Notes: generated by a model from the sequence alone, not told the origin. Shown: positions 14,590 to 37,468, counted from the first letter of the stretch. The stretch is DNA of 64,000 bases from an uncultured bacterium (GCA_964654545.1 CAZZIU010000014.1:899-64898), one strand, 5' to 3'. A program made the numbers and translations.

Positions 14590-14768
14590 TCGGTTATAAT
14601 GTCATTATCGTTAATCGGATTATTGTTTCGTATTCTAATCCTGACTAATTTGAAATCCTGTTCCGTTCAAATTGTATGCACATAGGATTCACAACATTAT
14701 TCGTCGAAAAAATAAGCAATTTAACGGTCAAATATTTTAATACAAAGCAACACAAAAGGGAGATCATT

Positions 14769-17696: not shown

Positions 17697-17699
17697 ACT

Positions 17700-23037: not shown

Positions 23038-23044
23038 GATTAAC

Positions 23045-24388: not shown

Positions 24389-26304
24389 TGAGAAGAATTC
24401 TTTCAGTCATTTTATCCTTTTCTGCGATTCTGATTGCAGGTGAAGGTGATATTTTGGAAGTAAATCTAATTTTCACCAACGAAATCCAGGGTTCCATTCA
24501 TCAGGTTCCGGCCCGGTTCATGAACCCGGAATATCCACCACTGTTAACCGGCGGCGCTGGTGCCTATACCTATGTGAACTCGGTTCGTGACGGCATTGAT
24601 AGTCCAGTTCTCCTGCTGGACGGCGGAGATTTTTTTCAAGGAACACCGTTAGGGACTCATGATGCAGGAAAATCGATCATCACATGGATGAATTGGATGC
24701 AATATGATGCATTGGTTCCCGGCGTGTTTGATTTTATTCTGGGTAGAGATGCACTGGCACACACTGCTTCCACTGCACACTTCCCATTTCTTGCCGCCAA
24801 TATCATTGAAAAGGAAACGGGAAAAAACCCGGACTTTGTAAAACCATATATCCTTAAAGAAATAGACGGTGTAACGTTTGGCATCATTGGTTTGGCTTCG
24901 CCAATGGTGAAAGATCAAATTGTTGCTGAGAAGTATGAAGGATTGATCTTTCAATCCCCACTGGAAGTTCTTGATAGATGGGTAAGCGAGGTGAAAACAC
25001 AGGGTGCAGATATTGTCATCCTACTGTCCAGCCTGGGATTACCCTATGAAAGGGAATCCGTATTTGATGAGTTTACCGATCAGATAGACACACAATCTTC
25101 TGAAATGCAAAATGAAACATTGGACGCAATCGTTTTGGCGCATTATGCAAAAGGTGTGGATATCATTGTGACCGGTGGAGTTTCCAAAGGATATGACACA
25201 CCTTGGATTGATCCTGAAACACATGTGCTGGTAGTGCAGAATTACGGCAACATTACTGGAATTGGTCATTTGATTTTACAGATCGACAGAAATGTAAAAA
25301 CTCTAACAGGATATCAATACCCGACCAAAAGAGGAATGATGATTAGCTTGCTGGAGGATGATGTTGCCGCCGACCCGGTGATAGCAGATTCAATCTCAAA
25401 CTGGGTTGAGAATTCAACACCTCCTCTCCACTTCTTAGATGATACTATAAAGGATGCTGTATTTATAGAACAGAACACAACATTATTCACAATGGATAAT
25501 TTTAACATTCCAGCAATAGGCACAGCCGATAGAATGGATATTATGACTTGGAATCTGGAATGGTTCCCGGCTGCGGGGGATACGACGATTGAGTATGTCA
25601 GTGAAGTCCTGCACGATCTAAATCTAGATATTGTTGCTCTTCAGGAAATAAAAAATATGGGGTGGTTTGGAAAATTGATGGAGCAAATTCCTGAATACGG
25701 GTACATTTTAACAAAACAATCCTCCTTTTTGAATCAAGCCATTATCTATCGAAAAGAAAATCTGGCTGTCCTCGATTATTATGAGCCATTTGCAATGGAT
25801 GATTATTTCTTTGCAGGACGACCACCCCTGCTGGTGAATTTTGCATATAATGACGGCTATACTGTAAAAGTCTTTACCGTAGTAAATCTCCACCTGAAGT
25901 GTTGCGGTGATGGTTTATATCGCAGGCAACGTTCTTTAGAGTGGCTGCACGATTATCTCTTGGAATATATGGCTGTAGGGCAGGATAGAATTGTGGTTTT
26001 AGGGGATTTGAATGACCAATTGGACGATGAGCCGGTATTTAATTCATTTTATCCGTTTCTTGATGATCCTGCAAATTTTTATTTTGTAACAGAATCCATT
26101 CATGATGATGCTTCACAGGCATCCTATCCCAGCTGGCCCAGTTTTCTTGATCACATTATAATTGGCAAAGGATTTTTCAATGATCACCAGCAAAGTGGAT
26201 CAATCCAGACGGTTCAGGTAGACGACTATGTAGGTAGTTGGGAATTATATGAGTCTACCATGTCCGACCATCTACCTGTTTTGTGGTCCTTTAAATTCAA
26301 ATAA
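24388..26304 (+). CDS. fusion protein: degenerate 5'-nucleotidase/metallophosphatase-like N-half + EEP nuclease/phosphatase C-half
   Basis: Internal ATG 24388 (TAATG overlap). The N-half aligns to UshA-type motifs, but the catalytic residues are replaced (TNEIQGS for TNDxHG, PGVFDF for GNHEFD, GGVSKG for GGHSH). GGDFFQGT is retained. The C-half EEP is intact: MTWNLEWF, ALQEIKN, VLGDLND, SDHLPVLWSF. Confidence 0.75.
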   Translation: MRRILSVILSFSAILIAGEGDILEVNLIFTNEIQGSIHQVPARFMNPEYPPLLTGGAGAYTYVNSVRDGIDSPVLLLDGGDFFQGTPLGTHDAGKSIITWMNWMQYDALVPGVFDFILGRDALAHTASTAHFPFLAANIIEKETGKNPDFVKPYILKEIDGVTFGIIGLASPMVKDQIVAEKYEGLIFQSPLEVLDRWVSEVKTQGADIVILLSSLGLPYERESVFDEFTDQIDTQSSEMQNETLDAIVLAHYAKGVDIIVTGGVSKGYDTPWIDPETHVLVVQNYGNITGIGHLILQIDRNVKTLTGYQYPTKRGMMISLLEDDVAADPVIADSISNWVENSTPPLHFLDDTIKDAVFIEQNTTLFTMDNFNIPAIGTADRMDIMTWNLEWFPAAGDTTIEYVSEVLHDLNLDIVALQEIKNMGWFGKLMEQIPEYGYILTKQSSFLNQAIIYRKENLAVLDYYEPFAMDDYFFAGRPPLLVNFAYNDGYTVKVFTVVNLHLKCCGDGLYRRQRSLEWLHDYLLEYMAVGQDRIVVLGDLNDQLDDEPVFNSFYPFLDDPANFYFVTESIHDDASQASYPSWPSFLDHIIIGKGFFNDHQQSGSIQTVQVDDYVGSWELYESTMSDHLPVLWSFKFK

Positions 26305-26308
26305 CATC

Positions 26309-27241
26309 ATGCTAAGAATACTTAGCTGGATATTGGCAATAGGTCTTATTCTGCTGATAGCCAGTTGTGCCAAACCCACTGAACCTCAGGACTTGCCAGA
26401 TGATAATGGAACGTCATCGCTTCCATATCCTTCATTACATATTGGAACGGATTCTACCTTTGAAATTGGTACCTGGAATTTGCTGAATTATCCCCACGCA
26501 TCCACATCAAACGTATATATCACTGATATATTAAAGTCGCTGGATGTGGATATGGTTTGTTTCCAGGAAATTAGTAATTCTTTGCAATTTGCCAACATGG
26601 TAAACCTGCTTAATGATATTGATTCGGTAAATACATGGGTTGGGCATGTGGGAAATTCTACCAATTATGACGGACAGGATTTGGCTGTGATTTATAAGGC
26701 CGATATAATTTCACAAATAGAATTCACGGATATTTTTACGAATGAAAGTGGGGCATTTCCTCGTTCTCCATTGAAAATTAAATTTACACTGAACGATGAG
26801 ACATTTATTGTCATTGATAATCATTTAAAAGCCTATGATTCTCAAGAGGATAGAGATAGAAGAAAGAATGCTTGCTCATTGCTGGATACATATATTGATT
26901 CGACCTATCCAAATGACAATGTGATTATCCTTGGTGACATGAACGATGAGGTTACGGATGGCTCTAGTGAGAATGTATTTTTAGCATTTATTGATTCGCC
27001 AGGTGACTATAAAATCGCTGATATGATCATAGCAAGGGGATCTTCACAAAATTGGTCCTACCCAACCTGGCCAAGCCATATTGATCATATTATTATTACC
27101 AATGAATTGTATGATGAGTTTAGCGGAAGCGGTGCAGCAATCAACACAATCCGGATTGATGATGCATTGGACGGTGGTTGGTATGAATATGAAACCAACA
27201 TTTCGGATCACAGACCGGTGGTTTGGTCATTTCCCTTGTAA
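26309..27241 (+). CDS. EEP-family nuclease/phosphatase lipoprotein
   Basis: Internal ATG 26309 gives the lipoprotein signal MLRILSWILAIGLILLIAS|C. EEP blocks: IGTWNLLNY, VCFQEISN, IILGDMNDE, SDHRPVVWSF. Confidence 0.8.
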   Translation: MLRILSWILAIGLILLIASCAKPTEPQDLPDDNGTSSLPYPSLHIGTDSTFEIGTWNLLNYPHASTSNVYITDILKSLDVDMVCFQEISNSLQFANMVNLLNDIDSVNTWVGHVGNSTNYDGQDLAVIYKADIISQIEFTDIFTNESGAFPRSPLKIKFTLNDETFIVIDNHLKAYDSQEDRDRRKNACSLLDTYIDSTYPNDNVIILGDMNDEVTDGSSENVFLAFIDSPGDYKIADMIIARGSSQNWSYPTWPSHIDHIIITNELYDEFSGSGAAINTIRIDDALDGGWYEYETNISDHRPVVWSFPL

Positions 27242-27464: not shown

Positions 27465-29579
27465 GTGATTTACAACAAATATAATATTCGTGCTATCTGT
27501 ACAATTCTAATTTGTATTTCATCCGTTCAGGCACAGTTTGCACCAGATGTATATGATCAATATACAAGTGTAAATCAATTGGGTCTGACCATAACAAATT
27601 ATGGTGTCCTAGGCAATGATTTAAGACGGATTAATGGTGAGATTTTACCATCATGTAAGTATAAGCAACACTCTGATGTTCTTCGAGAACAGGTTGAGCA
27701 TTTTTCATTTGCAGGAGTTTATATAGGTGGTATTGTAAACGGAGAGCGACGTGTAAGCACATCCATTATAGATGGTCAATTCGAATCCGGTACAGAAGGG
27801 TTTGAGTTTTTTCCTACTTCTGGAATCGATATACGTTCAACCATTTCCACTACTTCAGAGGATCCCATATCACAATATTTTGATACATCAGCAGTATCCC
27901 ATCAGGATATGATTATAAATTTTCGAGATTATGGACAGGTTATCCCCAATCATGAGCCATTAGGCATCGATGTTCACTTGGAATCCTATTCCTGGAATTT
28001 CAATTTTGCAGATGCATTTGATATTTTAAGCTATACAATTACTAATTCATCGCAGGATACGATTAGGGATATATATGCAGGAATATGGGTTGATGCGATT
28101 ATTGTCAATCCAAACTATACAGATATATACAACGGCGTAAGCAGACCGTTTTATTATCATCTTGACGGGTTTGATGAATCATCTGATGAATCTGGGTTTA
28201 ATCGTGATATTGCATATGTATATGATGCTGACGGGGATGATGGATGGTCGGAAACATACCTTGGAATAAAAAGGCTTGGCGGGAATGTTCCTGCAAAATA
28301 TCTCAATTCTCATTATGGCCAGTGGCTATGGAGTGGTTCATCATCAGAATACCCATCCTACATACAGGCACAAAACGATATAGAGCGCTATGAAATTATG
28401 ACATCCAGTGTACCAAAGGGATCAGTGGAAGCGCTCTACACTAGTGAAGGATATCCAAATCAACCTAATAGCTGGTTATTCCAGTTATCATCAGGACCAT
28501 TTGGAAGTTTACCTTTATCTCCCGATTCTACAAGTTGGGCATTACCACCAGGAGAGTCCTGTAATGTTGTATTTGCAGTCGTTGCCGCTCGCTGGAATGG
28601 TGGCGGAGATGACAGTCCCGAAAGAAGAGAAAATCTTTATATCAATTCTGATTGGGCACAACAAGCCTATGATGGGGAAGATAAAAACCGGAATAATATA
28701 TTGGATCCAAATGAAGATGTTAATGGAAATAATATACTGGACAGGTACATATTACCGGAACCTCCACCGAATCCTAATGTCCACGTTCAGGTTGGAGATA
28801 AATCCACAACAATCTATTGGTCTAATGAGGCTGAAAAATTTATCGATCCCATAAGTCAGAAAATTGACTTTGAAGGATATCGAATCTATGGCGCTCGAAA
28901 AACGGCTGGAGATGAATCAATAGAATTTACACTTTTAGGTGATTTTGATGTGTTTATTGACAGTATTCTAAATATTGGATATAACACAGGACTTGATGCT
29001 ATAGAAATTAGAGATGAGAATCAAAATCCCGATTCGGTTTTCATTGATGGACAGGTTTATCATTATAAATTTGAAAACACAGGAATCAATAATGGATGGT
29101 TAAGTTACTACTCGGTAACTGCCTATGATCGCGGTGATCCTGAAGCAAATCTGAAAAGTCTGGAAAGTTCAGTTTACTCAAACAGAGTATATGTCTATCC
29201 TGGTACTACGCCAGCGCACCCGGACTCGGTATGGAATCCAACTGTATACCCAAATCCTTATCGCGGCCAGGCAAAGTGGGATGGTTATGGGAATCGACAA
29301 CGAATGATCTGGTTTCGTCATCTCCCGAAACAAGCCGAAATTAGAATTTTCACACTCGCCGGTGATTTGGTGGACGTGATTCAGCATTCTGAAACATACC
29401 GGGGCGAAGATGTAGCAATCATTGATAGTAGAAAAAACCCCTTAATGAGCGGTGGCGAACATGCGTGGGACCTGATAACCAGATACGATCAGGCCATCGC
29501 TTCAGGGTTATACCTCTTCACGGTGGAAAACACCGAAACGCATGAAATAAAGGAAGGAAAATTCCTGATCATTAAATAA
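27465..29579 (+). CDS. hypothetical secreted protein with a Ca-binding-like DxDxNG repeat and a FlgD-Ig-like C-terminal domain
   Basis: GTG start. Signal ..ISSVQA|Q. DGEDKNRNNILDPNEDVNGNNILD lies at 28671-28742. C-terminus: VYPNPYRGQAKWDG...IRIFTLAGDLV...GLYLFTVEN...FLIIK. I recognise no catalytic motif. Confidence 0.5.
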   Translation: MIYNKYNIRAICTILICISSVQAQFAPDVYDQYTSVNQLGLTITNYGVLGNDLRRINGEILPSCKYKQHSDVLREQVEHFSFAGVYIGGIVNGERRVSTSIIDGQFESGTEGFEFFPTSGIDIRSTISTTSEDPISQYFDTSAVSHQDMIINFRDYGQVIPNHEPLGIDVHLESYSWNFNFADAFDILSYTITNSSQDTIRDIYAGIWVDAIIVNPNYTDIYNGVSRPFYYHLDGFDESSDESGFNRDIAYVYDADGDDGWSETYLGIKRLGGNVPAKYLNSHYGQWLWSGSSSEYPSYIQAQNDIERYEIMTSSVPKGSVEALYTSEGYPNQPNSWLFQLSSGPFGSLPLSPDSTSWALPPGESCNVVFAVVAARWNGGGDDSPERRENLYINSDWAQQAYDGEDKNRNNILDPNEDVNGNNILDRYILPEPPPNPNVHVQVGDKSTTIYWSNEAEKFIDPISQKIDFEGYRIYGARKTAGDESIEFTLLGDFDVFIDSILNIGYNTGLDAIEIRDENQNPDSVFIDGQVYHYKFENTGINNGWLSYYSVTAYDRGDPEANLKSLESSVYSNRVYVYPGTTPAHPDSVWNPTVYPNPYRGQAKWDGYGNRQRMIWFRHLPKQAEIRIFTLAGDLVDVIQHSETYRGEDVAIIDSRKNPLMSGGEHAWDLITRYDQAIASGLYLFTVENTETHEIKEGKFLIIK

Positions 29580-29596: not shown

Positions 29597-32500
29597 ATGA
29601 AAATAAAAACGTTATTAATTCTTTTGGTTCTGGTCTCCGTATCCTTTGGACAGGTGCTTACAATTGGAGAAGCGCGGGCAATGGATGTGGGCGATACAGT
29701 TACCGTAGAAGGAATTGTCACGACTCCTAGCTGGTCAACCGGTTATACGAGTTATCAGATTCAAGATGAAACAGGCGGATTGAATCTGTTCTATTACAGT
29801 CAGTATGTGGCACTTTCCATGGGGGATTTGGTTCAGGTCACCGGATACATTGAGTTGTACAACGGCTTATTGGAAATTATTGCCCTTGACGCTGCATCAA
29901 TCTCTATCGTCAGTTCGGGGAATGCATTACCAGAATCGCAACCATTGACACTATCCGCCCTCCTGAGCGATCCCGAATCATTCGAGTCTGAACTGGTGAC
30001 AATATATAATGCATCTGTTACGGGTGGTACCTGGCCGGCAGAAGGAAGCAGTGCCACGCTTCAAATTTCAGACGATGGTGGAAGCAATCAAGTTGATTTA
30101 CGAATTGATAGTGATACGGATGTTGATGGAAGTACAGAACCGACATGGCCCATGGTGATTACAGGAGTTTTGAGCCAATACGATGGATCTGCTCCTTATG
30201 ATGAAGGTTACCAGATTATGCCCAGAGCGTTAACCGATATTGGTGATCCACCGGCTGGTGTGTCCACCATGGCTGAAGCACGCGCAGATTCTGGTGGAAC
30301 CCATACGGTAAGAGGCTTTGTGAACACTCCACCCTTTGCGTTCTCCAGAACCGATGTGGGATTTCAAGATGCTACAGGTGGATTAAATCTCTTTGTCTAT
30401 AGTCAATATATGTCTACCCTTGAAGTTGGTGATTATATTGAAGCAACCGGTACCGTTATGGATTATAATGGGAAACGTGAACTAAGCTGTGCTGATACCA
30501 CTGCAATCACCATCCTGTATAAAGGATCAACAGTACCACCTGCAATGACTATGACAATCTCAGAAATATTAGCGGATCCGGAGACAATAGAAGGCATGTT
30601 GGTAAAAGTATTAAATGCCACCTATTCTGGAACCTGGCCAACGGGTAGCGGTAGTTTCGATTTGATTGATCCAACCGATACAATGGCCGTATATATTGAC
30701 AGCGATCAACCAATTGCCGGAATGACTCCACCCACCGGTGCGTTCAATTTGACCGGATGGTTGGGTCAATATTATTCTCATCAGATCATGCCGCGCTATG
30801 AAACGGATGTGGAAACATTTGAAAATCAGGCACCTGTTATTGTAAATGTTAGTTATTCACCGTCACCGGTTTACGATGGGGATGATGTGACAATTACAGC
30901 TGAAATAACAGACGACGGAAATTTTACTGCCACATTAGTATATGATGCTGGAGCTGGCGCAGTTGAAGTTGGTATGACGTATGTATCCGGGGATATGTAC
31001 GAAGCTGTTGTGCCCGGTCAATCCGCTGGAACAACGGTGACCTATCACGTGTCTGTAGATGATGGTGATTTGGTTACTGTATCTGATGATTTATCTTATT
31101 TGGTATTATCCTCTGCAGGTGGAACAGTACCAATTTATGATATTCAATATTCGGAAACCGGACCATCTCCTTTGGATGGAAATGAAGTGACCATTTCGGG
31201 TATTGTGACGGCAGAATTCTGGGGTAGTTCAAGCAATCGGTATCTTTATGTTCAAGATTCAACAGCGGCCTGGTGTGGGATCTACGTGTTTGAATATAGT
31301 GGATGGGACAATTTTGATTTTAATTCATCCACAGGAATTGTCCATTCAGTGGCCGAGGGTGACAGTATTTCTCTTACTGGAACGGTCACAGAATACTACG
31401 GTGTTACGGAAATAACCGATGTTACTCAGGTTACGATTTACGGTGAAGGAACTGTTCCGGATCCCATTGTGGTTACACCTGGTCAGGTTAAAACCGATGG
31501 TACAGAACAGGAAGCCTACGAAGGTGTATTGGTAAAAGTTGAGAACGTGGTTATTGCTGAAGAAGCTAATAACTATGGTGAATGGTTAGTTACCGATGGC
31601 ACAGACACATTAAAAGTAGATGATACCTGGGATTACTACTATTGGGGAAGTATGGGTGATACGTTGGCAGAAATTGTCGGTGTAATGGACTATTCATATA
31701 GCGAAGCCAAACTCCAACCGCGTCTGGCCCGCGATGTTGTGGAATCGGGTAATCGTTCACGCATTCAGCGGATTCAACACGTCCTTTACAGTGATCTATT
31801 GAAAACTGGACGGTTGGGTTCTGATGGTACGATTGATCATTCATCTGACATGTCGTATATGAATATTAATCCAGGCGTGGACACTACCTTTGTACAAATC
31901 AAAGGTATTGTAACCATGCCATCCGAGCTGGGTTACGCAGGAGCTGGTGTGAAAGTGATATACCAGGATATTCATGGTGGACCATGGAGTGGTATTCTTT
32001 CCTATGATCCGGATTCAAGTGCTTTTCCAGTCCTTTGGGAGGGCGACACCGTAGAGGTAACCGGTTATATTTCTGAATATGTTACCGACCACGCAAACAT
32101 GACAGAACTATTTGCAACCGATGTACCCAATGTTGTTGGATTTGGTAGTGGAGAACACAGAACCGGTATCCCAGATCCGGAAGTAGTGGAAGCAGGAGAT
32201 TTACGTTGGCCTGAAACCGCTGAACAGTGGGGCAATGTGTTTGTCCAGTTAAACGACCTTACCGTCACCGATGTAAGAACGAGTAATACTAACGAAGGAA
32301 TGTTCTCAGTATCAGATGGTACTGGTGAAGTGTGGATAGATCATGATTCTTGGGTCTGGTTCGACTGGTGGGAGTTGTATGGTTCTCCAGCCGTTGGCAC
32401 TCAAATAGATTCCATCTATGGATGGGTTTATCACCATTTCCATACCTACAGTGATTCAGGTGTATCCACTTACAAAATCGTTCCACTTTACGAAGAGGAC

Positions 32501-32824
32501 ATCTATTTCACAGATGTATCAAACGACGATGTGAGTGTACTTCCTGATGAATATGCATTGCATCAAAACTATCCGAATCCTTTCAATCCTTCCACACAGA
32601 TACAATTTGATGTGGTATCGGACAGTAAGATAAAATTGGTAGTATATGATGTAATGGGCAGGTACGTTCGCACACTAGTGAATGACAATTTGCCCAGCGG
32701 CAAGTATACTGTCACATGGGATGGTAAAAACAACGCCAGACAATCGGTTAGCAGTGGAGTCTATTTTGTTCGTATGACAACAAAGGACTTTGTATCTGTT
32801 AAAAAAATGAGTCTGGTCAGGTAG
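29597..32824 (+). CDS. T9SS cargo built from four tandem bipartite NucH/ExeM-type beta-barrel units, one Ig-like domain and a CTD; no catalytic domain seen
   Basis: Signal ..VSVSFG|Q. The units span 29651-30244, 30245-30820, 31124-31744 and 31745-32509. Each has the pattern I..(I/A)...G..VT..G.VT...hQD..GG..hF....GD.h.h.G.h..Y.G..Eh, for example VPIYDIQYSETGPSPLDGNEVTISGIVTAEF..YVQDSTAAWCGIYVF..GDSISLTGTVTEYYGVTEI. CTD: YPNPFNPSTQIQF...GVYFVRM...MSLVR. Confidence 0.7.
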   Translation: MKIKTLLILLVLVSVSFGQVLTIGEARAMDVGDTVTVEGIVTTPSWSTGYTSYQIQDETGGLNLFYYSQYVALSMGDLVQVTGYIELYNGLLEIIALDAASISIVSSGNALPESQPLTLSALLSDPESFESELVTIYNASVTGGTWPAEGSSATLQISDDGGSNQVDLRIDSDTDVDGSTEPTWPMVITGVLSQYDGSAPYDEGYQIMPRALTDIGDPPAGVSTMAEARADSGGTHTVRGFVNTPPFAFSRTDVGFQDATGGLNLFVYSQYMSTLEVGDYIEATGTVMDYNGKRELSCADTTAITILYKGSTVPPAMTMTISEILADPETIEGMLVKVLNATYSGTWPTGSGSFDLIDPTDTMAVYIDSDQPIAGMTPPTGAFNLTGWLGQYYSHQIMPRYETDVETFENQAPVIVNVSYSPSPVYDGDDVTITAEITDDGNFTATLVYDAGAGAVEVGMTYVSGDMYEAVVPGQSAGTTVTYHVSVDDGDLVTVSDDLSYLVLSSAGGTVPIYDIQYSETGPSPLDGNEVTISGIVTAEFWGSSSNRYLYVQDSTAAWCGIYVFEYSGWDNFDFNSSTGIVHSVAEGDSISLTGTVTEYYGVTEITDVTQVTIYGEGTVPDPIVVTPGQVKTDGTEQEAYEGVLVKVENVVIAEEANNYGEWLVTDGTDTLKVDDTWDYYYWGSMGDTLAEIVGVMDYSYSEAKLQPRLARDVVESGNRSRIQRIQHVLYSDLLKTGRLGSDGTIDHSSDMSYMNINPGVDTTFVQIKGIVTMPSELGYAGAGVKVIYQDIHGGPWSGILSYDPDSSAFPVLWEGDTVEVTGYISEYVTDHANMTELFATDVPNVVGFGSGEHRTGIPDPEVVEAGDLRWPETAEQWGNVFVQLNDLTVTDVRTSNTNEGMFSVSDGTGEVWIDHDSWVWFDWWELYGSPAVGTQIDSIYGWVYHHFHTYSDSGVSTYKIVPLYEEDIYFTDVSNDDVSVLPDEYALHQNYPNPFNPSTQIQFDVVSDSKIKLVVYDVMGRYVRTLVNDNLPSGKYTVTWDGKNNARQSVSSGVYFVRMTTKDFVSVKKMSLVR

Positions 32825-32835
32825 TTGAAAACAAT

Positions 32836-32867
32836 GCAACGGGTGTTCTTTGATGAACACCCGTTGC
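32836..32867 (+). terminator. 13-bp perfect stem-loop at the operon boundary (candidate terminator, no U-tract)
   Basis: GCAACGGGTGTTC-tttgat-GAACACCCGTTGC begins 12 nt after the stop of the 29597-32824 gene. The following sequence (actcataag) lacks a T-run. Confidence 0.4.
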
Positions 32868-32885
32868 ACTCATAAGTCACACACA

Positions 32886-34676
32886 ATGAATCTAAAACCC
32901 ATGTATAAGTATATTCTTTTGGTTGTGTTATTGTGCATAGTATCCTGCTCTTTATGGGACTATAAAGACAATTCAGATCCCTTGGGCAACCAGTACCCGG
33001 AAACCTTTCTGACACTGGTTGCAGCGGATACCATCTATGTTGTAATTGAAGATATTCTTGAGGTTATAGATACATTAAATGGGACCACGACCTATGATAC
33101 AATTTGGAATTTCAGCATAGGCTCAGAACCAGCAGACACCATGATTGTTGTTGATACACTGGGTAACGCATTCACAACTATTACCACCAGTCAGCAGCCC
33201 TTGAGTTGGTGGGGCGAAGACCCGGACGGTAACGTGACAGGATATTATTACAAGTGGAATACCGATAATGAATGGAGTTGGACAACCAGCGAATCACAAT
33301 TATTCTACGTACCAATTCGAAAGGCGTTGGACGTATTTAGTTTTTCGGTGCGAGCGGTAGATGATGCGGCAAAGTGGGAGTACGACGAGCCAGTTAGCTC
33401 AGAGATAGATAATGAGTACTTTTCTGATGTGGGTGATAGTCTATATGTATATGATTCACATGATGTGGTATTATCCGAGGGGGACCACCCGGGAATTCAA
33501 ACATCCTGGGGAGCTGTTCTTAAAAAGGTGAAAGGAACAGAGATATACAAGCTGGTCCCAACTGATACTTCCGATGCCATAGATCCCACCCCGGCAACTC
33601 TGACATTTCCAATAAGAAATTCACATCCGGAGGTTGAATTTCGCTATGGTAGTAATCCAACTCGAGCTGATCATGGCAGTATTTCCTATACATTTCCCAC
33701 GCGTACTTTTATATGGGATGCATTTGATCTGGACGGGAGAGAGACAATTACCTATTTCTATTATGCTTTGGATGATACCTGCGATACCTGTTGGATAACA
33801 TTGGACGCTCAAGTCCAATCGTCTGTCACATTTCCAAATTCTTTTTCGGTTTTGACACCCGGTGAGCACACCTTTTATCTAAAAGCAAAAGATATTGCCG
33901 GCGCGGAAAGTCCAATGATCCAATTTCCTGATAGCACAAAAATTGACGAGTGTCAAACATGGATTGTTAAGTCGATAACCGGAAACACATTGCTTGTGGA
34001 CGATTTTCCATTGGATGTGGGCAACGATGCTCAACATTGGTATAGCAATGCCCTGGAATCCATATTAGGAACAGACCAATTTTCCATTTGGGAAATTGGT
34101 GATGCCTTACCTTACAGTTCAGTTGACGTTCTGGCAACGTTGTCCTATTTCGATAATATAATATGGTACACAGCATACACACAGAATGAAACCTATAATG
34201 ATGCCAGTGCAAGTATATTAAGCTTTGTGCAAAATGGTGGGAATTTCTTTATTAATGCTACTGAATTAAAGGACACTTCGTTTGTCTGGTTTCCAATCCA
34301 GTCTCGCAGTGTGATAAACCCGAACGGAAGATTTTTCCCCAATCGCATAATCGCTTCACAAGTTCCCGGATTAGATAGTCTGGTTACATCCTTTACGATC
34401 GGTGTGAGAGTAAAGAGTTTTATTCCGGATAGTTCACAATTTGCAACAATTAAAGATTTGTACCACCTATCTGAACCTATTTCGGGTGATGGTTGGACTG
34501 GAACTCCCAATGTTTGCAGTCTAGGTCAGTTGCCGGTTCCGCCAAACGGAATCTCTGGAAAGATAGTTTTATTTTCTATTCCGATGCACACGGGAGCAAA
34601 CCCTACAATGGAGGGTGGCGAAGGATCAGGCGCACACCTATTGGAATACCTGTTGACTCAGGAGTTCATTGAATGA
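32886..34676 (+). CDS. hypothetical surface/periplasmic lipoprotein
   Basis: Internal ATG 32886 gives MNLKPMYKYILLVVLLCIVS|C. It contains Ig-like segments (WWGEDPDGNVTGYYYKWN). ATGA overlap with the downstream TonB-dependent receptor gene. I recognise no family. Confidence 0.5.
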   Translation: MNLKPMYKYILLVVLLCIVSCSLWDYKDNSDPLGNQYPETFLTLVAADTIYVVIEDILEVIDTLNGTTTYDTIWNFSIGSEPADTMIVVDTLGNAFTTITTSQQPLSWWGEDPDGNVTGYYYKWNTDNEWSWTTSESQLFYVPIRKALDVFSFSVRAVDDAAKWEYDEPVSSEIDNEYFSDVGDSLYVYDSHDVVLSEGDHPGIQTSWGAVLKKVKGTEIYKLVPTDTSDAIDPTPATLTFPIRNSHPEVEFRYGSNPTRADHGSISYTFPTRTFIWDAFDLDGRETITYFYYALDDTCDTCWITLDAQVQSSVTFPNSFSVLTPGEHTFYLKAKDIAGAESPMIQFPDSTKIDECQTWIVKSITGNTLLVDDFPLDVGNDAQHWYSNALESILGTDQFSIWEIGDALPYSSVDVLATLSYFDNIIWYTAYTQNETYNDASASILSFVQNGGNFFINATELKDTSFVWFPIQSRSVINPNGRFFPNRIIASQVPGLDSLVTSFTIGVRVKSFIPDSSQFATIKDLYHLSEPISGDGWTGTPNVCSLGQLPVPPNGISGKIVLFSIPMHTGANPTMEGGEGSGAHLLEYLLTQEFIE

Positions 34677-37468
34677 AAATTAAAATCCTGATTCTATTTC
34701 TCCTTGTATACAAGATAATGGCACAGCAAAATGGTTTTATCACTGGGCAGGTGATAGACGGTGAAACAAATGAGCCATTGGTCGGTGTTAACGTATTTGT
34801 AAAAGGAACCTATTTCGGTGCGGCAACAGATATCGATGGATATTATTCTATAGCGAATGTTGCTCCGGGAAGTTATGATGTGGAAACATCCATAATTGGG
34901 TATAAGCTCGTACTGCAGACCGGAATTACTGTACTTCCAGGCGAACATGTACAACTGAATTTTACAATGGAAAAAACAGTACTTGCACTAGGTGAAGAAG
35001 TAGTGGTACTTGGGAAAAAACCATTGTTTGACGTAGATGAAACATCATCCGTATCTCGTATTTCAGCCGATGACATTCAAAACAAAGTAGTGTCCAGCGT
35101 AGAAGATATTTTATCTGAGCAAATTGGAGTGACGAAACAAGACAATGAAATCCATATCCGCGGTGGCAGGATTGATGAAAGCATGTTCATCGTGGATGGG
35201 ATGTCCGTAAAGGATCCGTTATCTGGATATTCTGGTAATTTGTTTATCAATGCAGAAGCAATTGAAGATTTAGAAATAGTAACCGGTGGCTATGATGCCG
35301 AATATGGTCAAGCCATGTCTGGTATTGTAAATATAAAATTGAAGGAAGGACGAGATAGATTTGAGGGTGCATTTAAATATGCCAGCGATAATTTCGGCAT
35401 AGGAAAGAACACATTTTCTGAATCTATTGATGATCGATTTGAATTTAACATTGGCGGTCCGGCTCTCATCTTTGAAAAACTTCCCCATTTCATTGGGATG
35501 GACATGCCCGGTAAATTTTCGTTTTTTATCAATGGATACGGAAAGATTTACGATAGCAATTTACCTGTAGCAAAAAAACTGTACCCACATCGAAACTGGA
35601 GCACAATACCAGGGTTGACTGAATCTCAAACAGATCGGTTACTGGCAAAATTGGCACCAAGGGAAAATAACGATTGGCATGTATTATATAAGTTAACCTG
35701 GGAATTGGATCAAAAACGGAAATTGGCCTTTTCTTATGACATTTCCATGAATATTAATCAGGGCTTTTTCATGCCTCGCGCCTTTTCATCCACGTATTAT
35801 CCTTATGCCTACCAAAAAATTCTTGATAACTACAATACAATAACCCGTGAGACCAGGCTGGGAAACGTGAACTGGGTCCATACCCTGAGCACCCAATCCT
35901 TCTATGAAATCACGGTAGGGCGGTTTATTACAATGGAGCATAGTGCTGTCCAGGATCTTCATTGGACAGAGTACGAAGAAAGACTCGATTTAAATCCTAT
36001 TAATTACACGTTAAAAGATGATGAAGGAAATACCCGTATTACCTACGGTGATGAATTTTATGATACTGGTATGTCACCGGAATGGTACGATACATTTAGT
36101 GACAATTGGCGTATGGATATTGATTGGGTGTATCAAACCCGGACACGCCATAAAATCAAGACCGGCTTAGATCACAATGTATCGGATATCCAGGTTTTGG
36201 ATATTGAAGAACCATGGACGGGGACAACAGGTTTTGGGGTAAACTATGACAGGTACAAGGTGCAAACATTATTTGGCGCACTTTATCTGCAGGATCGTAT
36301 TGTATTTGACGGGATGACACTGAATATTGGAATGCGATATGACTATTGGATGCCTGGTAAATATGTTGAGAATGCATTAAAAGATACAACCAGATCTTCG
36401 TCTACCGAAATCATCAATTGGACGGAGATGAAAGAAACATTCGATAAAGAAACATTTTCCTTCATGGGGTACAGAACCAAAGGTCGGATTAGTCCCAGAT
36501 TTGGAATTTCACATCCGGTAACCAATAACGATGTCCTCTATTTTTATTATGGACATTTTTCACAGCTACCCACTTTTCAGTACGTTTATTCAAAACTTAG
36601 CTCAGGTTCACAATCTACTTATCAGGTATTCGGGAATCCCAATTTGAATCCGAAGACAACTGTCCAGTATGAAATCGGGATAAAACACCGCTTCAGTGAA
36701 GATCAGGTTTTAGAGCTTAAAGCGTATTGGAAAGATATGTTTGATTATGAAACATCGCAGACTATTGTACCGTCCAATCCAAAATTTGCTCACTTGCGAT
36801 TTAACATGTATTTCAATGCAGACTATGCGCGGTCGCGGGGAATAGAATTCATACTCAAAAGCAGGGTCTTACCAAATTGGTTCCTGGATGCCAATATCAA
36901 TTATTCGATTGTGACTGGTAAAAGTTCATCACCCAACGACAATTTATTGGTACAGGCAGGAGAGATACGGGAGAAACCGTTGAATGAGAATTTTATGAGC
37001 TGGGATAGACCACTCCAGTTTTTCTCAAATATTAGTTACAACCACCCCAGTAACTGGGGGTTATCTCTTCGTTTGGAATACAATTCTGGCAGACGATATA
37101 CAGCATCAATCCCAGGGACAAAGGATTATCCGGATGGGTATATTACTGTTGATGGTGTCCAATACTTTATTGGTACAACAGACGATGATAGACCATATTA
37201 TTCCATTAGTAAAATTTCAGAGAAAACCATTGATTTAAAATTGTTTAAATCCTTTCAATTTGACAGGATAAGATTGAAAACATATTTGGAAGTCGAGAAT
37301 CTTCTCAATTATGAAATTCCTAGGAGAGTCAATCCATTTACCGGAGAGGGTTTTGGACCGGGTGAAATATTTTCTTACAGTTTATTGGACGATCCAAATC
37401 CCAATTATGATCCATCAAGAAATCGTCAACCAAGAACCACTACTTTCGGAATCCAGGTGTTGTTTTAA
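34673..37468 (+). CDS. TonB-dependent receptor with an N-terminal carboxypeptidase-regulatory-like domain
   Basis: Signal ..YKIMA|Q. CarbopepD_reg-like block: GFITGQVIDGETNEPLVGVNVFVKGTYFGAATDIDGYYSI..APGSY. Plug: VEDILSEQIGV...IHIRGGR..ESMFIVDGMSVKDP. Long barrel ending TTFGIQVLF. Confidence 0.85.
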   Translation: MKIKILILFLLVYKIMAQQNGFITGQVIDGETNEPLVGVNVFVKGTYFGAATDIDGYYSIANVAPGSYDVETSIIGYKLVLQTGITVLPGEHVQLNFTMEKTVLALGEEVVVLGKKPLFDVDETSSVSRISADDIQNKVVSSVEDILSEQIGVTKQDNEIHIRGGRIDESMFIVDGMSVKDPLSGYSGNLFINAEAIEDLEIVTGGYDAEYGQAMSGIVNIKLKEGRDRFEGAFKYASDNFGIGKNTFSESIDDRFEFNIGGPALIFEKLPHFIGMDMPGKFSFFINGYGKIYDSNLPVAKKLYPHRNWSTIPGLTESQTDRLLAKLAPRENNDWHVLYKLTWELDQKRKLAFSYDISMNINQGFFMPRAFSSTYYPYAYQKILDNYNTITRETRLGNVNWVHTLSTQSFYEITVGRFITMEHSAVQDLHWTEYEERLDLNPINYTLKDDEGNTRITYGDEFYDTGMSPEWYDTFSDNWRMDIDWVYQTRTRHKIKTGLDHNVSDIQVLDIEEPWTGTTGFGVNYDRYKVQTLFGALYLQDRIVFDGMTLNIGMRYDYWMPGKYVENALKDTTRSSSTEIINWTEMKETFDKETFSFMGYRTKGRISPRFGISHPVTNNDVLYFYYGHFSQLPTFQYVYSKLSSGSQSTYQVFGNPNLNPKTTVQYEIGIKHRFSEDQVLELKAYWKDMFDYETSQTIVPSNPKFAHLRFNMYFNADYARSRGIEFILKSRVLPNWFLDANINYSIVTGKSSSPNDNLLVQAGEIREKPLNENFMSWDRPLQFFSNISYNHPSNWGLSLRLEYNSGRRYTASIPGTKDYPDGYITVDGVQYFIGTTDDDRPYYSISKISEKTIDLKLFKSFQFDRIRLKTYLEVENLLNYEIPRRVNPFTGEGFGPGEIFSYSLLDDPNPNYDPSRNRQPRTTTFGIQVLF

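What the first reader, a model, noticed from the sequence alone, without database searches (positions are those of the whole stretch)
29597..32824. Non-catalytic surface protein made of four tandem bipartite NucH-type units
I can delimit four consecutive ~190-255-aa units: 29651-30244, 30245-30820, 31124-31744 and 31745-32509.
- Each unit has a first half of the form I..I/A...G..VT..G.VT...QD..GG..hF...GD.h.h.G....Y.G..E.
- Each has a second half of the form h...h......E..LV.h.N..h......G.h.h.D..G..h.h.......h.G.h..Y....QhhPR.
- Unit 3 begins VPIYDIQ...SPL.G..VTISGIVTA, which is the motif I associate with the region preceding the catalytic domain of ExeM/NucH endonucleases.
- An Ig-like domain separates units 2 and 3, and a canonical T9SS CTD ends the protein.
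- I see no nuclease motif anywhere in the protein.

A multivalent, cell-anchored array of putative nucleic-acid-binding barrels would suit polymer capture.
Basis: partly seen in the sequence, partly recalled or inferred. Interest (0 to 1): 0.7.

Follow-up and report, generated by a model that had tools for sequence, protein, structure and literature searches.

The report
Secreted four-unit OB-fold DNA-capture protein
An uncultured marine bacterium (Marinimicrobia) encodes an enzyme-less secreted protein made of four copies of a double-barrel module that related nucleases use to hold DNA, and the gene sits in a conserved cluster with DNA-cutting enzymes and an outer-membrane importer, which points to a dedicated system for harvesting dissolved DNA.

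Summary
ORF 29597-32824 (+) is intact and encodes 1075 aa: signal peptide, four homologous ~200-aa units, a beta-sandwich between units 2 and 3, and a T9SS type-A C-terminal domain (CTD). There is no catalytic domain.

- **Unit fold:** each unit is a duplicated OB barrel, so the protein has eight barrels. The AlphaFold2 model has pLDDT 97. Its best PDB matches are tandem-OB nucleic-acid binders (HIN-200:dsDNA, Teb1, RPA).
- **Unit family:** the units match Pfam DUF5689, the N-region of ExeM/NucH nucleases, and OB3-OB4 of the solved nuclease SpnA.
- **Literature:** DUF5689 is DdbD of the Bacteroides DNA-utilisation locus and a transformation protein of Riemerella. The OB domains of Xds and SpnA are required for nuclease activity on DNA.
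- **Context:** in 43 of 43 Marinimicrobia genomes with enough sequence, a 2-4-unit array lies in the order unknown T9SS protein, array, lipoprotein, TonB-dependent transporter, PorV-like porin, NHL protein. EEP nucleases are usually nearby.

The most likely function is multivalent capture of extracellular DNA for a nuclease and transporter system. Binding is untested, and the protein is extremely acidic.

This is a new variant of a known kind. About 31,000 representative proteins carry the module, and 3-6-unit T9SS arrays are common. Interest is moderate to good.

The parts
29597..29650 (+). Signal peptide (aa 1-18, MKIKTLLILLVLVSVSFG)
   Evidence: Read directly from the sequence. Modelled as an N-terminal helix, aa 2-16. 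Cleavage site not tested.
29651..30244 (+). Unit 1 (aa 19-216): tandem OB barrels, DUF5689-type
   Evidence: - Pfam DUF5689, 39.9 bits, profile positions 19-217 of 217; OB-fold family PF01336, 27.1 bits.
- AF2 pLDDT 97.2, two five-stranded barrels.
- Foldseek hits to HIN-200, Teb1 and RPA.
30245..30820 (+). Unit 2 (aa 217-408): tandem OB barrels, DUF5689-type
   Evidence: - SW z = 52 against unit 1.
- Unit HMM E 3e-59.
- DUF5689 23.1 bits; NF033681 30.9 bits.
30821..31123 (+). Beta-sandwich spacer (aa 409-509), Ig-like/CBM-like
   Evidence: - Nine predicted strands, pLDDT 77-89.
- Only sub-threshold sequence hits: CBM56, DUF7507, PKD, Big_7. In the PDB: bglH CBM56 E 0.0024 and the PPAD Ig-like domain E 0.037.
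31124..31744 (+). Unit 3 (aa 510-716): tandem OB barrels, ExeM/NucH-type
   Evidence: - NF033681, 47 bits, profile positions 3-136; ExeM model NF033680, E 6e-6.
- Unit HMM E 2e-51.
31760..31804 (+). Conserved inter-unit segment RIQRIQHVLYSDLLK (aa 722-736)
   Evidence: - Near-invariant in 18 orthologues.
- Present in 41 of 48 arrays with three or more units.
- AF2 pLDDT < 50 for aa 725-764. Role unknown.
31826..32509 (+). Unit 4 core (aa 744-971): tandem OB barrels, ExeM/NucH-type with insertions
   Evidence: - Unit HMM E 1.6e-49.
- SW z = 15.7 against unit 3.
- Lower model confidence, pLDDT 50-80.
32570..32809 (+). T9SS type-A C-terminal sorting domain (aa 992-1071)
   Evidence: Por_Secre_tail, FlgD_ig and TIGR04183, the last at 38 bits against a cut-off of 23.
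27465..29579 (+). Upstream partner gene P704 (704 aa, no known family, C-terminus resembles a T9SS CTD)
   Evidence: - No Pfam family. [quoted passage not shown]
- No PDB relative.
- Present in 41 of 43 related loci, 55-71% identity.
32850..34676 (+). Downstream partner gene P608 (608 aa lipoprotein, no known family), overlaps the transporter start by 4 nt
   Evidence: - Lipobox LLCIVSC followed by SLWDYKD.
- No Pfam, NCBIfam or PDB hit.
- Present in 72 of 80 loci.
34673..37468 (+). TonB-dependent transporter with N-terminal carboxypeptidase-regulatory-like domain
   Evidence: - CarbopepD_reg_2, Plug and TonB receptor models.
- 62-79% identity across 80 Marinimicrobia species loci.
37468..38466 (+). 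PorV/FadL-like outer-membrane protein, conserved downstream
   Evidence: Weak PorV and Toluene_X hits. Present in 77 of 80 loci.
38466..39920 (+). NHL-repeat protein, conserved downstream
   Evidence: NHL repeat E 5e-14. Present in 71 of 80 loci.
26249..27241 (+). EEP-family nuclease with lipobox (330 aa)
   Evidence: - Exo_endo_phos E 1.6e-13.
- Matches the catalytic part (positions 280-496) of the ExeM/NucH model.
- LIASC lipobox.
24346..26304 (+). 652-aa protein with C-terminal EEP nuclease domain
   Evidence: Exo_endo_phos E 4.6e-12, aa 400-642.
12862..14589 (+). EEP nuclease + lamin-tail domain + T9SS CTD (575 aa)
   Evidence: Pfam. Its homologue lies next to the core cluster in 30 related loci.
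17700..19703 (+). Lamin-tail domain protein carrying a fifth copy of the unit (aa 351-554)
   Evidence: Unit HMM E 4e-26. LTD and OB hits.

Best explanation
**What it is.** The gene encodes a non-catalytic, T9SS-exported, multivalent nucleic-acid-binding protein of a Marinimicrobia bacterium. Each of its four units is a pair of OB barrels. The same module precedes the catalytic domain of ExeM/NucH/Xds and SpnA nucleases, and it constitutes DdbD (DUF5689) of the Bacteroides DNA-utilisation locus.

**Proposed mechanism.**
1. The signal peptide takes the protein across the inner membrane.
2. The C-terminal domain takes it through the T9SS. The translocon gene sprA is in the same window.
3. The protein ends up on or near the cell surface.
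4. The eight OB barrels, spaced by a beta-sandwich, bind extracellular DNA with high avidity.
5. Bound DNA is held for the co-encoded secreted EEP nucleases.
6. The fragments pass to the adjacent lipoprotein and TonB-dependent transporter pair for import as a source of P, N and C.

The role is analogous to surface glycan-binding proteins (SusE/F) in polysaccharide-utilisation loci.

**Shown.** Architecture, fold, homology and conserved synteny.

**Inferred.** The ligand (DNA), surface retention, and co-operation with the nucleases and the transporter.
For: **Architecture and repeat statistics**.

**Fold.**
- The unit model has pLDDT 97.2 and pTM 0.91, with two five-stranded barrels.
- The halves are homologous to each other.
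- Best PDB matches are tandem-OB DNA binders: Teb1 AB, and p204, IFI16, MNDA, p202 and AIM2 HIN domains, including dsDNA complexes (E 2e-6 to 1e-4, probability 1.0).
- The full-length model's best hit is p204 HINab-dsDNA, over 426 columns.

**Homology.**
- DUF5689, 60.1 bits against a cut-off of 28.6.
- OB family PF01336, 56.1 bits against 27.
- ExeM/NucH N-region.
- The unit profile hits SpnA 9sf8 OB3-OB4 at E 7e-9, then RPA and Stn1 OB domains.

**Literature.**
- DdbD is annotated DUF5689. It is predicted to be the substrate-binding partner of the transporter DdbC and resembles p202 HIN (10.1101/2025.03.18.642099).
- The Riemerella DUF5689 protein and the neighbouring CarboxypepD_reg transporter are essential for transformation (PMC8459023).
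- The Xds OB domain is required for nuclease activity (PMC6746945).
- SpnA OB2-4 are required for DNA binding during catalysis (PMC13601614).

**Context.**
- The same strand of the window carries three EEP nucleases, four lamin-tail-domain proteins, a helix-hairpin-helix protein and a CarboxypepD_reg TonB-dependent transporter.
- Core gene spacing is operon-like: gaps of 17, 25, -4, -1 and -1 nt.
- 43 of 43 transporter-anchored loci carry an array upstream, and 29 of 39 also carry an EEP nuclease.

**Domain partners of the unit elsewhere.**
- They are nucleases or phosphoesterases: Endonuclease_1, SNase with 5'-nucleotidase, metallo-beta-lactamase, PLD-like and FokI cleavage domains.
- No glycoside hydrolase appears.
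Against: - No binding experiment exists for this protein or for any DUF5689 protein. DdbD's role is itself a structural prediction.
- The protein is extremely acidic (pI 4.05, net charge -107, unit 1 has no lysine), whereas HIN domains bind DNA through basic patches. The only widely conserved basic residues are two arginines per unit. As mitigation, the bona fide EEP nucleases of the same cluster are equally acidic (-8 to -9 per 100 aa).
- Whole-unit TM-scores to HIN domains are only 0.35-0.42, because the two barrels are oriented differently.
- OB folds can also bind oligosaccharides or proteins. SpnA OB2 binds complement (PMC13601614).
- Units 3 and 4 carry Trp/Tyr-rich loops and the spacer is weakly CBM56-like. 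Both features would also suit a glycan ligand.
- A lipoprotein gene lies between the array and the transporter, unlike ddbCD.
- I could not compare the transporter with DdbC directly.
- More distant homologues are not always next to a transporter.
Confidence: 0.6

Rival explanations
1. **DNA uptake for natural transformation.** The array binds DNA as in the best explanation, but the system serves competence rather than nutrition. The array catches dsDNA at the surface and hands long DNA to the TonB-dependent transporter for entry into the periplasm, as proposed for the Riemerella DUF5689 protein and its transporter.
For: - Riemerella RA0C_RS04920 (DUF5689) and RA0C_RS04915 (CarboxypepD_reg transporter) are essential for transformation, as is a helix-hairpin-helix protein (PMC8459023).
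- The window encodes an 817-aa protein with an HHH_3 motif at 20584-23037.
- One distant homologue lies two genes from ComEC.
Against: - Up to three EEP nucleases in the cluster, and their conservation in 29 of 39 loci, fit degradation better than uptake of intact DNA.
- No ComEC, DprA or ComF gene is in the 64-kb window.
- The HHH gene lies in an accessory block that is absent upstream of the core cluster in L001.
Confidence: 0.12
2. **Glycan or other polymer binding.** The units bind a non-nucleic-acid polymer such as a polysaccharide or glycoconjugate. The protein would then be a surface glycan-binding protein of a PUL-like locus, and the OB barrels would act as oligosaccharide binders.
For: - OB folds include oligosaccharide binders (established knowledge).
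- Units 3 and 4 have Trp/Tyr-rich loops (DDTWDYYYW, DHDSWVWFDWW).
- The spacer has sub-threshold CBM56 similarity in 8 of 13 orthologues and to the bglH CBM56 in the PDB (E 0.0024).
- The strongly acidic surface is unfavourable for polyanion binding.
Against: - No glycoside hydrolase, lyase or esterase is found in the core cluster, in any of the related loci examined, or fused to the unit in 161 homologues inspected.
- Every catalytic partner is a nuclease or phosphoesterase.
- Sequence and structure neighbours are nucleic-acid-binding OB folds.
Confidence: 0.12
3. **Transporter lid.** One or more units dock directly on the TonB-dependent transporter as its extracellular lid or substrate-binding subunit. 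This would be the DdbD role in a DdbCD-type complex, not that of a free capture arm.
For: - DdbD (DUF5689) is predicted by AlphaFold3 to form a complex with DdbC (10.1101/2025.03.18.642099).
- The array is strictly syntenic with the transporter in 43 of 43 loci.
- A highly conserved, poorly modelled segment (aa 722-736) could be a docking motif.
Against: - The conserved lipoprotein P608 sits between the array and the transporter, is translationally coupled to the transporter (4-nt overlap), and is the more obvious partner.
- The array varies in unit number (2-4) and evolves faster (38-50% identity) than the transporter (50-79% identity).
- The array is a T9SS cargo, not a lipoprotein.
Confidence: 0.08
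4. **Adhesin or scaffold.** The protein is a structural surface protein whose OB barrels mediate protein-protein contacts, for example tethering the secreted nucleases or attaching to particles. It would have no direct role in binding nucleic acid.
For: - SpnA OB domains bind host complement proteins and IdeS (PMC13601614).
- Tandem beta-domain T9SS cargo are often adhesins (established knowledge).
- Full-length Foldseek also lists multi-domain receptor ectodomains, although with TM about 0.1.
Against: - Those full-length matches are non-specific beta-rich alignments.
- Unit-level matches are specific to nucleic-acid-binding OB folds.
- Domain partners and genomic context are nuclease-centred.
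Confidence: 0.08

Closest known systems
DdbD (DUF5689) of the Bacteroides thetaiotaomicron ddbABCDEF DNA-utilisation locus, and Riemerella anatipestifer RA0C_RS04920
   Same: - Same Pfam family: PF18942 is met at 60 bits.
- Same kind of neighbourhood: secreted nucleases plus a CarboxypepD_reg-type TonB-dependent transporter.
   Different: - DdbD is a single-unit lipoprotein encoded directly next to the transporter. In Riemerella it also carries DUF5017.
- This protein has four units, a beta-sandwich spacer, a type-I signal peptide and a T9SS CTD.
- It is separated from the transporter by an unrelated lipoprotein gene.
- It belongs to a different phylum.
- I could not compare it directly with the DdbD or DdbC sequences.
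ExeM/NucH/Xds extracellular nucleases (NCBIfam NF033681; lamin-tail domain, OB, EEP)
   Same: - All four units match the pre-catalytic N-region of the family model.
- Lamin-tail domains and EEP domains are encoded in neighbouring genes and in longer orthologues of the array.
- The Xds OB domain is needed for activity (PMC6746945).
   Different: - No EEP catalytic domain: 95 bits against the 300-bit family cut-off.
- The module is repeated four times.
- In this lineage the nuclease and the binding modules are separate T9SS cargo proteins.
Streptococcus pyogenes SpnA (PDB 9SF8/9SF9) and S. gordonii SsnA, cell-wall-anchored OB + EEP nucleases
   Same: - The unit profile aligns to SpnA OB3 and the start of OB4 (E 7e-9).
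- SpnA has four OB barrels, which equals two such pairs.
- Both are surface-tethered, and OB2-4 are needed for DNA binding during catalysis (PMC13601614).
   Different: - SpnA is an enzyme anchored by LPXTG in a Gram-positive wall.
- This protein has eight barrels, no enzyme domain and a T9SS CTD.
HIN-200 domains (AIM2, IFI16, p202, p204, MNDA)
   Same: Two consecutive OB barrels in about 200 aa. They are the top structural matches, including dsDNA complexes.
   Different: - No detectable sequence relationship.
- Different inter-barrel orientation (TM 0.35-0.42, rmsd 7-8 A).
- HIN domains are basic eukaryotic cytosolic or nuclear sensors. These units are very acidic and extracellular.
SusE/SusF-type surface glycan-binding proteins of polysaccharide-utilisation loci (functional analogy only)
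   Same: A non-catalytic, multi-domain, multivalent surface protein encoded beside degradative enzymes and a TonB-dependent transporter.
   Different: Unrelated fold and presumed ligand. It is exported by the T9SS rather than by lipidation.

Membership tests
Pfam DUF5689 (PF18942) | Whole-protein score at or above the gathering cut-off (28.6 bits), with near full-length coverage of the 217-position model | tested here: met
   - 60.1 bits for the protein.
- Unit 1 alone scores 39.9 bits over profile positions 19-217.
- Units 2 and 3 are below the cut-off on their own (23.1 and 16.3 bits), and unit 4 is not detected.
DdbD-type transporter partner (ddbCD / Riemerella RS04920-RS04915) | Single-unit lipoprotein encoded directly adjacent to the CarboxypepD_reg TonB-dependent transporter | tested here: not met
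   - Type-I-like signal peptide, four units and a T9SS CTD.
- A 608-aa lipoprotein gene lies between the array and the transporter.
DdbD-type transporter partner (ddbCD / Riemerella RS04920-RS04915) | Physical complex with the transporter; requirement for DNA depletion or transformation | not testable with these tools
   No co-folding tool and no genetics are available.
ExeM/NucH family extracellular endonuclease (NF033681) | Score at or above 300 bits, including the C-terminal EEP catalytic domain | tested here: not met
   - 95.1 bits, confined to profile positions 1-136.
- No Exo_endo_phos hit anywhere in the protein.
ExeM/NucH family extracellular endonuclease (NF033681) | Pre-catalytic OB region homologous to the family's N-terminal part | tested here: met
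   - All four units hit profile positions 1-136: E 2.9e-4, 1.3e-7, 1.8e-12 and 0.076.
- The unit profile hits the SpnA OB3-OB4 region at E 7e-9.
OB-fold nucleic-acid-binding domain (PF01336 / OB fold) | Five-stranded closed beta barrel; score above the Pfam cut-off (27 bits) | tested here: met
   - 56.1 bits.
- The AF2 model shows two five-stranded barrels per unit.
- RPA, Stn1 and aaRS OB domains superpose at 2.5-4 A over about 110 columns.
HIN-200 domain | Tandem OB pair with HIN sequence signature and a basic dsDNA-binding surface | tested here: inconclusive
   - A tandem OB pair is present, and HIN domains are top Foldseek hits (probability 1.0). But TM is 0.35-0.42.
- There is no HIN Pfam hit.
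- The units are strongly acidic.
- This is a fold analogue, not a member.
T9SS type-A cargo | C-terminal sorting domain (TIGR04183 at or above 23 bits; PF18962 at or above 27 bits) | tested here: met
   - TIGR04183, 38 bits; PF18962, 29.1 bits on the whole protein and 35.5 bits on the tail alone.
- sprA is in the same window.
- Export and anchoring themselves were not tested.
Nucleic-acid-binding protein (function) | Measured binding of DNA or RNA | not testable with these tools
   Inferred only from homology, fold, domain partners and gene context.

The most novel reading that the evidence does not exclude
Marinimicrobia (Fidelibacterota), among the most abundant uncultured heterotrophs of the dark ocean, carry a phylum-wide, T9SS-dependent DNA-utilisation locus.
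- A modular array of 2-4 HIN-like OB pairs acts as the DNA-capture arm.
- The array is functionally split off from ExeM/NucH-type nucleases.
- It feeds a highly conserved lipoprotein and TonB-dependent transporter pair.

This would be a nucleic-acid counterpart of the Sus paradigm outside Bacteroidota, and possibly a major route of dissolved-DNA phosphorus turnover.
Probability: 0.4. Interest if true: 0.75.

Novelty: new variant of a known kind. Interest (0 to 1): 0.55.

Why it matters
**Ecological reason.** Dissolved DNA is a large pool of organic phosphorus and nitrogen in the sea, and the organisms and machinery that harvest it are poorly known.
- The conserved cluster offers a concrete, testable candidate system in an abundant uncultured phylum. 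Its order is nucleases, unknown T9SS protein, OB-pair array, lipoprotein, TonB-dependent transporter, PorV-like porin, NHL protein.
- The cluster was found in every Marinimicrobia locus with enough sequence.
- The transporter is 62-79% identical across 80 species-level genomes. It is represented by metagenomic clusters of hundreds of members.

**Functional reason.**
- The finding extends the recently proposed DUF5689/DdbD DNA-binding module from single-unit Bacteroides lipoproteins to a very large family. About 31,000 representatives at 50% identity carry the module, often in 3-6-unit T9SS arrays.
- It suggests that the 'OB region' of ExeM/NucH/Xds/SpnA nucleases is one portable tandem-OB module that can work apart from the enzyme.
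- It gives recombinant targets for the first direct test of what DUF5689 binds. One unit models at pLDDT 97.

Tried and rejected
- **Self-BLASTP** of the protein printed no off-diagonal hits. I replaced it with Smith-Waterman scores against shuffles.
- **Single-sequence PDB search** of the whole protein found only FlgD-like matches to the CTD. The unit profile was needed to reach SpnA and RPA.
I anchored the scan on the transporter instead.
- **Homologue search with the transporter** returned only close Marinimicrobia relatives at 64% identity or more. It therefore gave no link to DdbC or Oar.
- **Contexts of distant homologues** P0023 and P0091 are not conserved. The synteny claim is limited to Marinimicrobia.
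- **Promoter and terminator scan.** 51 promoter-like sites against 62.5 expected, and 16 terminator-like sites against 12.7 expected, which is uninformative. The only note is one hairpin in the 223-nt gap before P704.
- **P704 and P608** have no PDB sequence relatives and no Pfam family.
- **Acidity as an argument against DNA binding.** I considered this and rejected it as decisive, because the cluster's genuine EEP nucleases are just as acidic.
- **Degraded nuclease (pseudo-enzyme).** I considered this and rejected it. The ORF is intact, orthologues at 38-81% identity keep the same enzyme-less plan, and there is no remnant catalytic region.

Full report

The coordinates delimit one intact ORF, 29597..32824 on the + strand, 1075 aa. 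It is identical to a database protein from a 74-kb NCBI contig. Its closest relatives (81-66% identity) are named as Candidatus Marinimicrobia or Neomarinimicrobiota proteins, 'T9SS type A sorting domain-containing' or 'DUF5689 domain-containing'.

- Smith-Waterman scores against 200 shuffles give z = 52 (U1-U2), 15.7 (U3-U4) and 6.5-13.4 for the cross pairs.
- The spacer and the C-terminal domain, used as internal controls, give z < 2 against every unit.
- An HMM built from the units finds exactly four end-to-end copies, with envelopes 21-217, 222-407, 511-716 and 744-971.

- The two halves of a unit are homologous to each other (hhalign probability 91%, E 8.8e-7 over 69 columns).
- There are two subtypes, U1/U2 and U3/U4.
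- The first ~27 residues of 'unit 4' form a separately conserved segment.

**2. What are the units?**

Pfam assigns the protein to several families above their cut-offs:
- DUF5689, 60.1 bits against a cut-off of 28.6.
- The OB-fold family PF01336, 56.1 bits against 27.
- Por_Secre_tail and FlgD_ig at the C-terminus.

NCBIfam matches only the first ~136 positions of the 546-position ExeM/NucH model. All four units hit this region, but the total is 95 bits against a cut-off of 300. The catalytic part of that model (positions 280-496) is matched by a separate gene two positions upstream.

Unit 1 scores best on DUF5689 (39.9 bits), and unit 3 scores best on ExeM/NucH (47 bits; it also hits the ExeM model NF033680).

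I aligned 48 units taken from this protein and its homologues. With that alignment AlphaFold2 models unit 1 at pLDDT 97.2 and pTM 0.91, as two five-stranded beta barrels.

Foldseek against the PDB returns the following.
- **Tandem-OB nucleic-acid binders first.** These are Teb1 AB and the HIN-200 domains of p204, IFI16, MNDA, p202 and AIM2, several in complex with dsDNA. E-values are 2e-6 to 1e-4 and probability is 1.0.
- **Single OB domains next.** RPA, Stn1 and the Lys/Asp-tRNA synthetase anticodon-binding domains superpose at 2.5-4 A.
- **Modest whole-unit TM-scores.** They reach only 0.35-0.42, because the two barrels are oriented differently from those of HIN domains.

A profile of the unit searched against PDB sequences finds S. 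pyogenes SpnA best (9sf8/9sf9, E 7e-9). The match covers the OB3-OB4 region just before its EEP nuclease domain. RPA32, RPA and Stn1 follow.

It is not met. The protein is a string of eight OB barrels.

**3. The other parts.**
- Residues 409-509 are predicted as a nine-strand beta sandwich with pLDDT 77-89.
- Sequence evidence for that sandwich is sub-threshold only. CBM56 appears in 8 of 13 orthologues, Big_7 and PKD appear, and the PDB gives bglH CBM56 at E 0.0024 and the Porphyromonas PPAD Ig-like domain at E 0.037. 'Ig-like' is therefore fair as a fold description, but a CBM-like role cannot be excluded.
- The T9SS CTD is canonical.
- The T9SS translocon gene sprA lies at 491-6781 in the same window.
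- No catalytic family matches, and no unassigned stretch is long enough to hide one.
- The full-length model (pLDDT 76, pTM 0.43) is reliable per domain, not for domain arrangement. Its best PDB hit is the two-HIN p204-dsDNA complex, aligned over two consecutive units.

**4. Surroundings.** The gene sits in a long same-strand cluster.

| Window coordinates | Product |
|---|---|
| 12862-14589 | EEP nuclease + lamin-tail domain + T9SS CTD |
| 14676-17696 | two lamin-tail domains + PKD + CTD |
| 17700-19703 | lamin-tail domain + a fifth copy of the unit (E 4e-26) |
| 20584-23037 | helix-hairpin-helix protein |
| 22901-24388 | FadL-like porin |
| 24346-26304 | protein with C-terminal EEP domain |
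| 26249-27241 | EEP lipoprotein |
| 27465-29579 | unknown 704-aa protein with a CTD-like tail |
| 29597-32824 | the array |
| 32850-34676 | unknown 608-aa lipoprotein |
| 34673-37468 | CarboxypepD_reg + Plug TonB-dependent transporter |
| 37468-38466 | PorV/FadL-like porin |
| 38466-39920 | NHL-repeat protein |

- From the 704-aa gene to the NHL gene the spacings are 17, 25, -4, -1 and -1 nt, which is operon-like.
- Beyond about 42 kb the genes are housekeeping: QueG, DJ-1, malate dehydrogenase, RNase G and MetH.

**5. Is the context conserved?**
- Look-ups of two diverged orthologues of the array recover the core order: ~700-aa protein, array, ~510-aa protein, transporter, PorV-like porin, NHL protein. 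Look-ups of two orthologues of the transporter recover the same order.
- A transporter-anchored scan of one genome per GTDB species found 237 relatives. The best 80 loci are essentially all Marinimicrobia, Neomarinimicrobiota or Fidelibacterota.
- Of 43 loci with more than 6.5 kb upstream, all 43 carry an OB-pair array in the same position, and 41 carry the 704-aa gene.
- Complete arrays have 4 units (26 loci), 3 units (16) or 2 units (1), and are 770-1633 aa long. The longer ones add lamin-tail domains.
- 29 of 39 loci with more than 9.5 kb upstream also contain an EEP nuclease homologue.
- The array is the fastest-evolving member (38-50% identity, against 50-69% for the transporter in the same four loci). 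This is typical of exposed binding proteins.
- More distant two-unit or one-unit homologues do not keep this context.

**6. How big is the family?**
- The unit profile finds 31,148 representatives (50% clusters) at E <= 1e-3 and 4,012 at E <= 1e-30. The top 150 carry 2-6 units.
- Among 41 of these multi-unit proteins, 34 have a T9SS CTD, 32 reach DUF5689, 15 have lamin-tail domains and 9 have a plastocyanin-like domain.
- The only enzyme domains among those 41 are PLD-like (3 proteins) and a FokI cleavage domain (1). Both are nuclease families.
- Among the first 120 homologues, the enzyme partners are Endonuclease_1, SNase with 5'-nucleotidase (YhcR-like), metallo-beta-lactamase, and one trypsin-like peptidase.
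- No glycoside hydrolase was seen.
- Enzyme-less T9SS arrays of this module are therefore common, not unique to this window. I found none described in the searched literature.

**7. What the literature adds.**
- 'DUF5689' occurs in three papers of the held library; two were listed, and I read both.
- In B. thetaiotaomicron, ddbABCDEF is required for depletion of exogenous DNA. DdbA, DdbB and DdbF are nucleases and DdbC is a TonB-dependent transporter.
- DdbD is annotated DUF5689. AlphaFold3 predicts that it docks on DdbC, and it resembles the dsDNA-binding HIN domain of p202 (10.1101/2025.03.18.642099).
- In Riemerella anatipestifer, a DUF5689 + DUF5017 protein and the adjacent CarboxypepD_reg outer-membrane protein are essential for natural transformation (PMC8459023).
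- In V. cholerae Xds, an ExeM/NucH-family enzyme, deleting the OB domain abolishes activity, whereas the lamin-tail domain is dispensable (PMC6746945).
- In SpnA, four OB domains precede the nuclease, and OB2-4 are needed for DNA binding during catalysis. OB2 also binds complement proteins (PMC13601614).
- None of these papers reports direct binding measurements for a DUF5689 module.

**8. Most likely mechanism** (confidence 0.6).

The protein is exported by Sec and then by the T9SS, and it stays on or near the surface. Its eight OB barrels bind extracellular DNA multivalently. The co-encoded EEP nucleases cut the DNA. The lipoprotein and transporter pair imports the products. The array would be the nucleic-acid counterpart of SusE/F-type binding proteins.
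- **Shown here:** architecture, fold, family relationships, conserved synteny and nuclease-centred domain partnerships.
- **Inferred:** the ligand, surface retention and hand-over.

The main counter-evidence is charge.
- The protein has pI 4.05 and net charge -107, and unit 1 has no lysine. HIN domains bind DNA through basic residues.
- All secreted proteins of the cluster are equally acidic, including the EEP nucleases (-7 to -10 per 100 aa). Acidity is therefore a trait of this organism's exoproteome and does not discriminate.
- Binding through Mg2+/Ca2+ bridges is conceivable. Type-A units carry an RIDSDTDVDG loop that resembles a DxDxDG calcium site. That resemblance rests on my own knowledge and is untested.

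**9. Rivals.**
- **Natural transformation instead of nutrition (0.12).** This is favoured by the Riemerella precedent and by the helix-hairpin-helix gene. It is disfavoured by the multiple nucleases and by the absence of ComEC and DprA from the window.
- **A glycan or other ligand (0.12).** This is favoured by the Trp/Tyr-rich loops of units 3 and 4, the weakly CBM56-like spacer and the acidity. It is disfavoured by the complete absence of carbohydrate-active enzymes in the locus and among fusion partners.
- **A DdbD-like lid on the transporter (0.08).** This is disfavoured by the intervening, translationally coupled lipoprotein.
- **An adhesin or protein scaffold (0.08).**

**10. Novelty and score.**

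The module and the general idea were already published in 2025. That idea is a DUF5689 protein acting as DNA-binding partner in a locus of nucleases and a TonB-dependent transporter. The OB region of ExeM, Xds and SpnA is also known. The following appear to be new.
- The enzyme-less, four-unit, T9SS-exported form.
- The recognition that DUF5689 and the nuclease 'OB region' are one duplicated-OB module.
- The module's strict embedding in a conserved seven-gene Marinimicrobia locus with two uncharacterised partner families.

I file it as a new variant of a known kind, with interest 0.55. It would rank higher if the locus proves to be a major route of DNA uptake in the ocean.

Noticed in passing
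window 491-6781 (+): A 2096-aa ORF matches SprA (PF14349, E 8e-32), the T9SS outer-membrane translocon. It lies on the same strand as the cluster of T9SS cargo genes.
   Followed up: partly
window 12862-26304 (+): An accessory block of DNA-related genes: EEP + lamin-tail domain + CTD nuclease, a protein with two lamin-tail domains + PKD + CTD, a lamin-tail protein with a fifth OB-pair unit, an unknown 295-aa ORF, an HHH_3 protein (817 aa), a FadL-like porin, and a 652-aa protein with a C-terminal EEP domain. In orthologous locus L001 the upstream neighbours (peptidase M28 ... Polysacc_deac_2) abut the nuclease directly, so most of this block looks like an insertion or expansion.
   Followed up: partly
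window 32850-34676 (+); orthologues in L008-L087: The 608-aa protein has no Pfam, NCBIfam or PDB relative. It has a lipobox followed by a conserved C-[ST]-L-W-[ED]-Y acidic motif (41 of 66 complete orthologues), reminiscent of the Bacteroidota surface-lipoprotein export signal. It overlaps the transporter start by 4 nt. It is a likely unrecognised family of transporter surface partners.
   Followed up: partly
window 27465-29579 (+): The 704-aa protein has no known family and only a weak PorZ-C-terminus/CTD-like tail. It is conserved at 55-71% identity immediately upstream of the array in 41 of 43 loci. Function unknown.
   Followed up: partly
window 31760-31804 (aa 722-736 of the target): The segment RIQRIQHVLYSDLLK, between units 3 and 4, is more conserved than the units themselves. 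It is near-invariant in 18 orthologues and present in 41 of 48 arrays with three or more units. AlphaFold models the region 725-764 at pLDDT < 50. It may be a docking motif or the displaced first helix of unit 4.
   Followed up: partly
window 30050-30080 (unit 1) versus 31630-31670 and 32320-32370 (units 3, 4): The same loop of the second barrel differs by unit type. In DUF5689-type units it is RIDSDTDVDG, which is DxDxDG-like and a possible Ca2+ site. In NucH-type units it is Trp/Tyr-rich: VDDTWDYYYW and IDHDSWVWFDWW. This suggests the two unit types bind differently.
   Followed up: no
window 12862-39920, all secreted products: Every predicted secreted protein of the cluster is strongly acidic (net -7 to -10 per 100 aa, pI 4.0-4.5). 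Membrane-barrel and cytoplasmic proteins in the window are not as acidic (about +2 to -4.5 per 100 aa).
   Followed up: yes
window 37468-39920 (+): A PorV/FadL/UPF0164-like outer-membrane protein and an NHL-repeat beta-propeller protein follow the transporter, with 1-nt overlaps. They are conserved in 77 and 71 of 80 loci. Their role in the system is unexplained.
   Followed up: partly
window 26249-26304 and 22901-23037: Adjacent ORFs overlap in different frames: 56 nt between the 652-aa EEP gene and the EEP lipoprotein gene, and 137 nt between the HHH gene and the FadL-like gene. The listed starts of the downstream genes are probably too far upstream. A Met followed by a signal-like sequence lies about 20 codons in, for example MLRILSWILAIGLILLIASC.
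   Followed up: no
L045, L067, L068: Three genome bins labelled Opitutia, Winogradskyella and Parcubacteria carry the same Marinimicrobia locus at 62-66% transporter identity. L066 and L067 show the same gene content and array length (1419 aa). This is probably binning contamination, not horizontal transfer.
   Followed up: no
P0027, P0028, P0036, P0107, P0108 and 9 of 41 proteins in A6: Many multi-unit OB-pair arrays from other lineages carry a plastocyanin/azurin-like copper-binding domain. I cannot explain this partnership.
   Followed up: no
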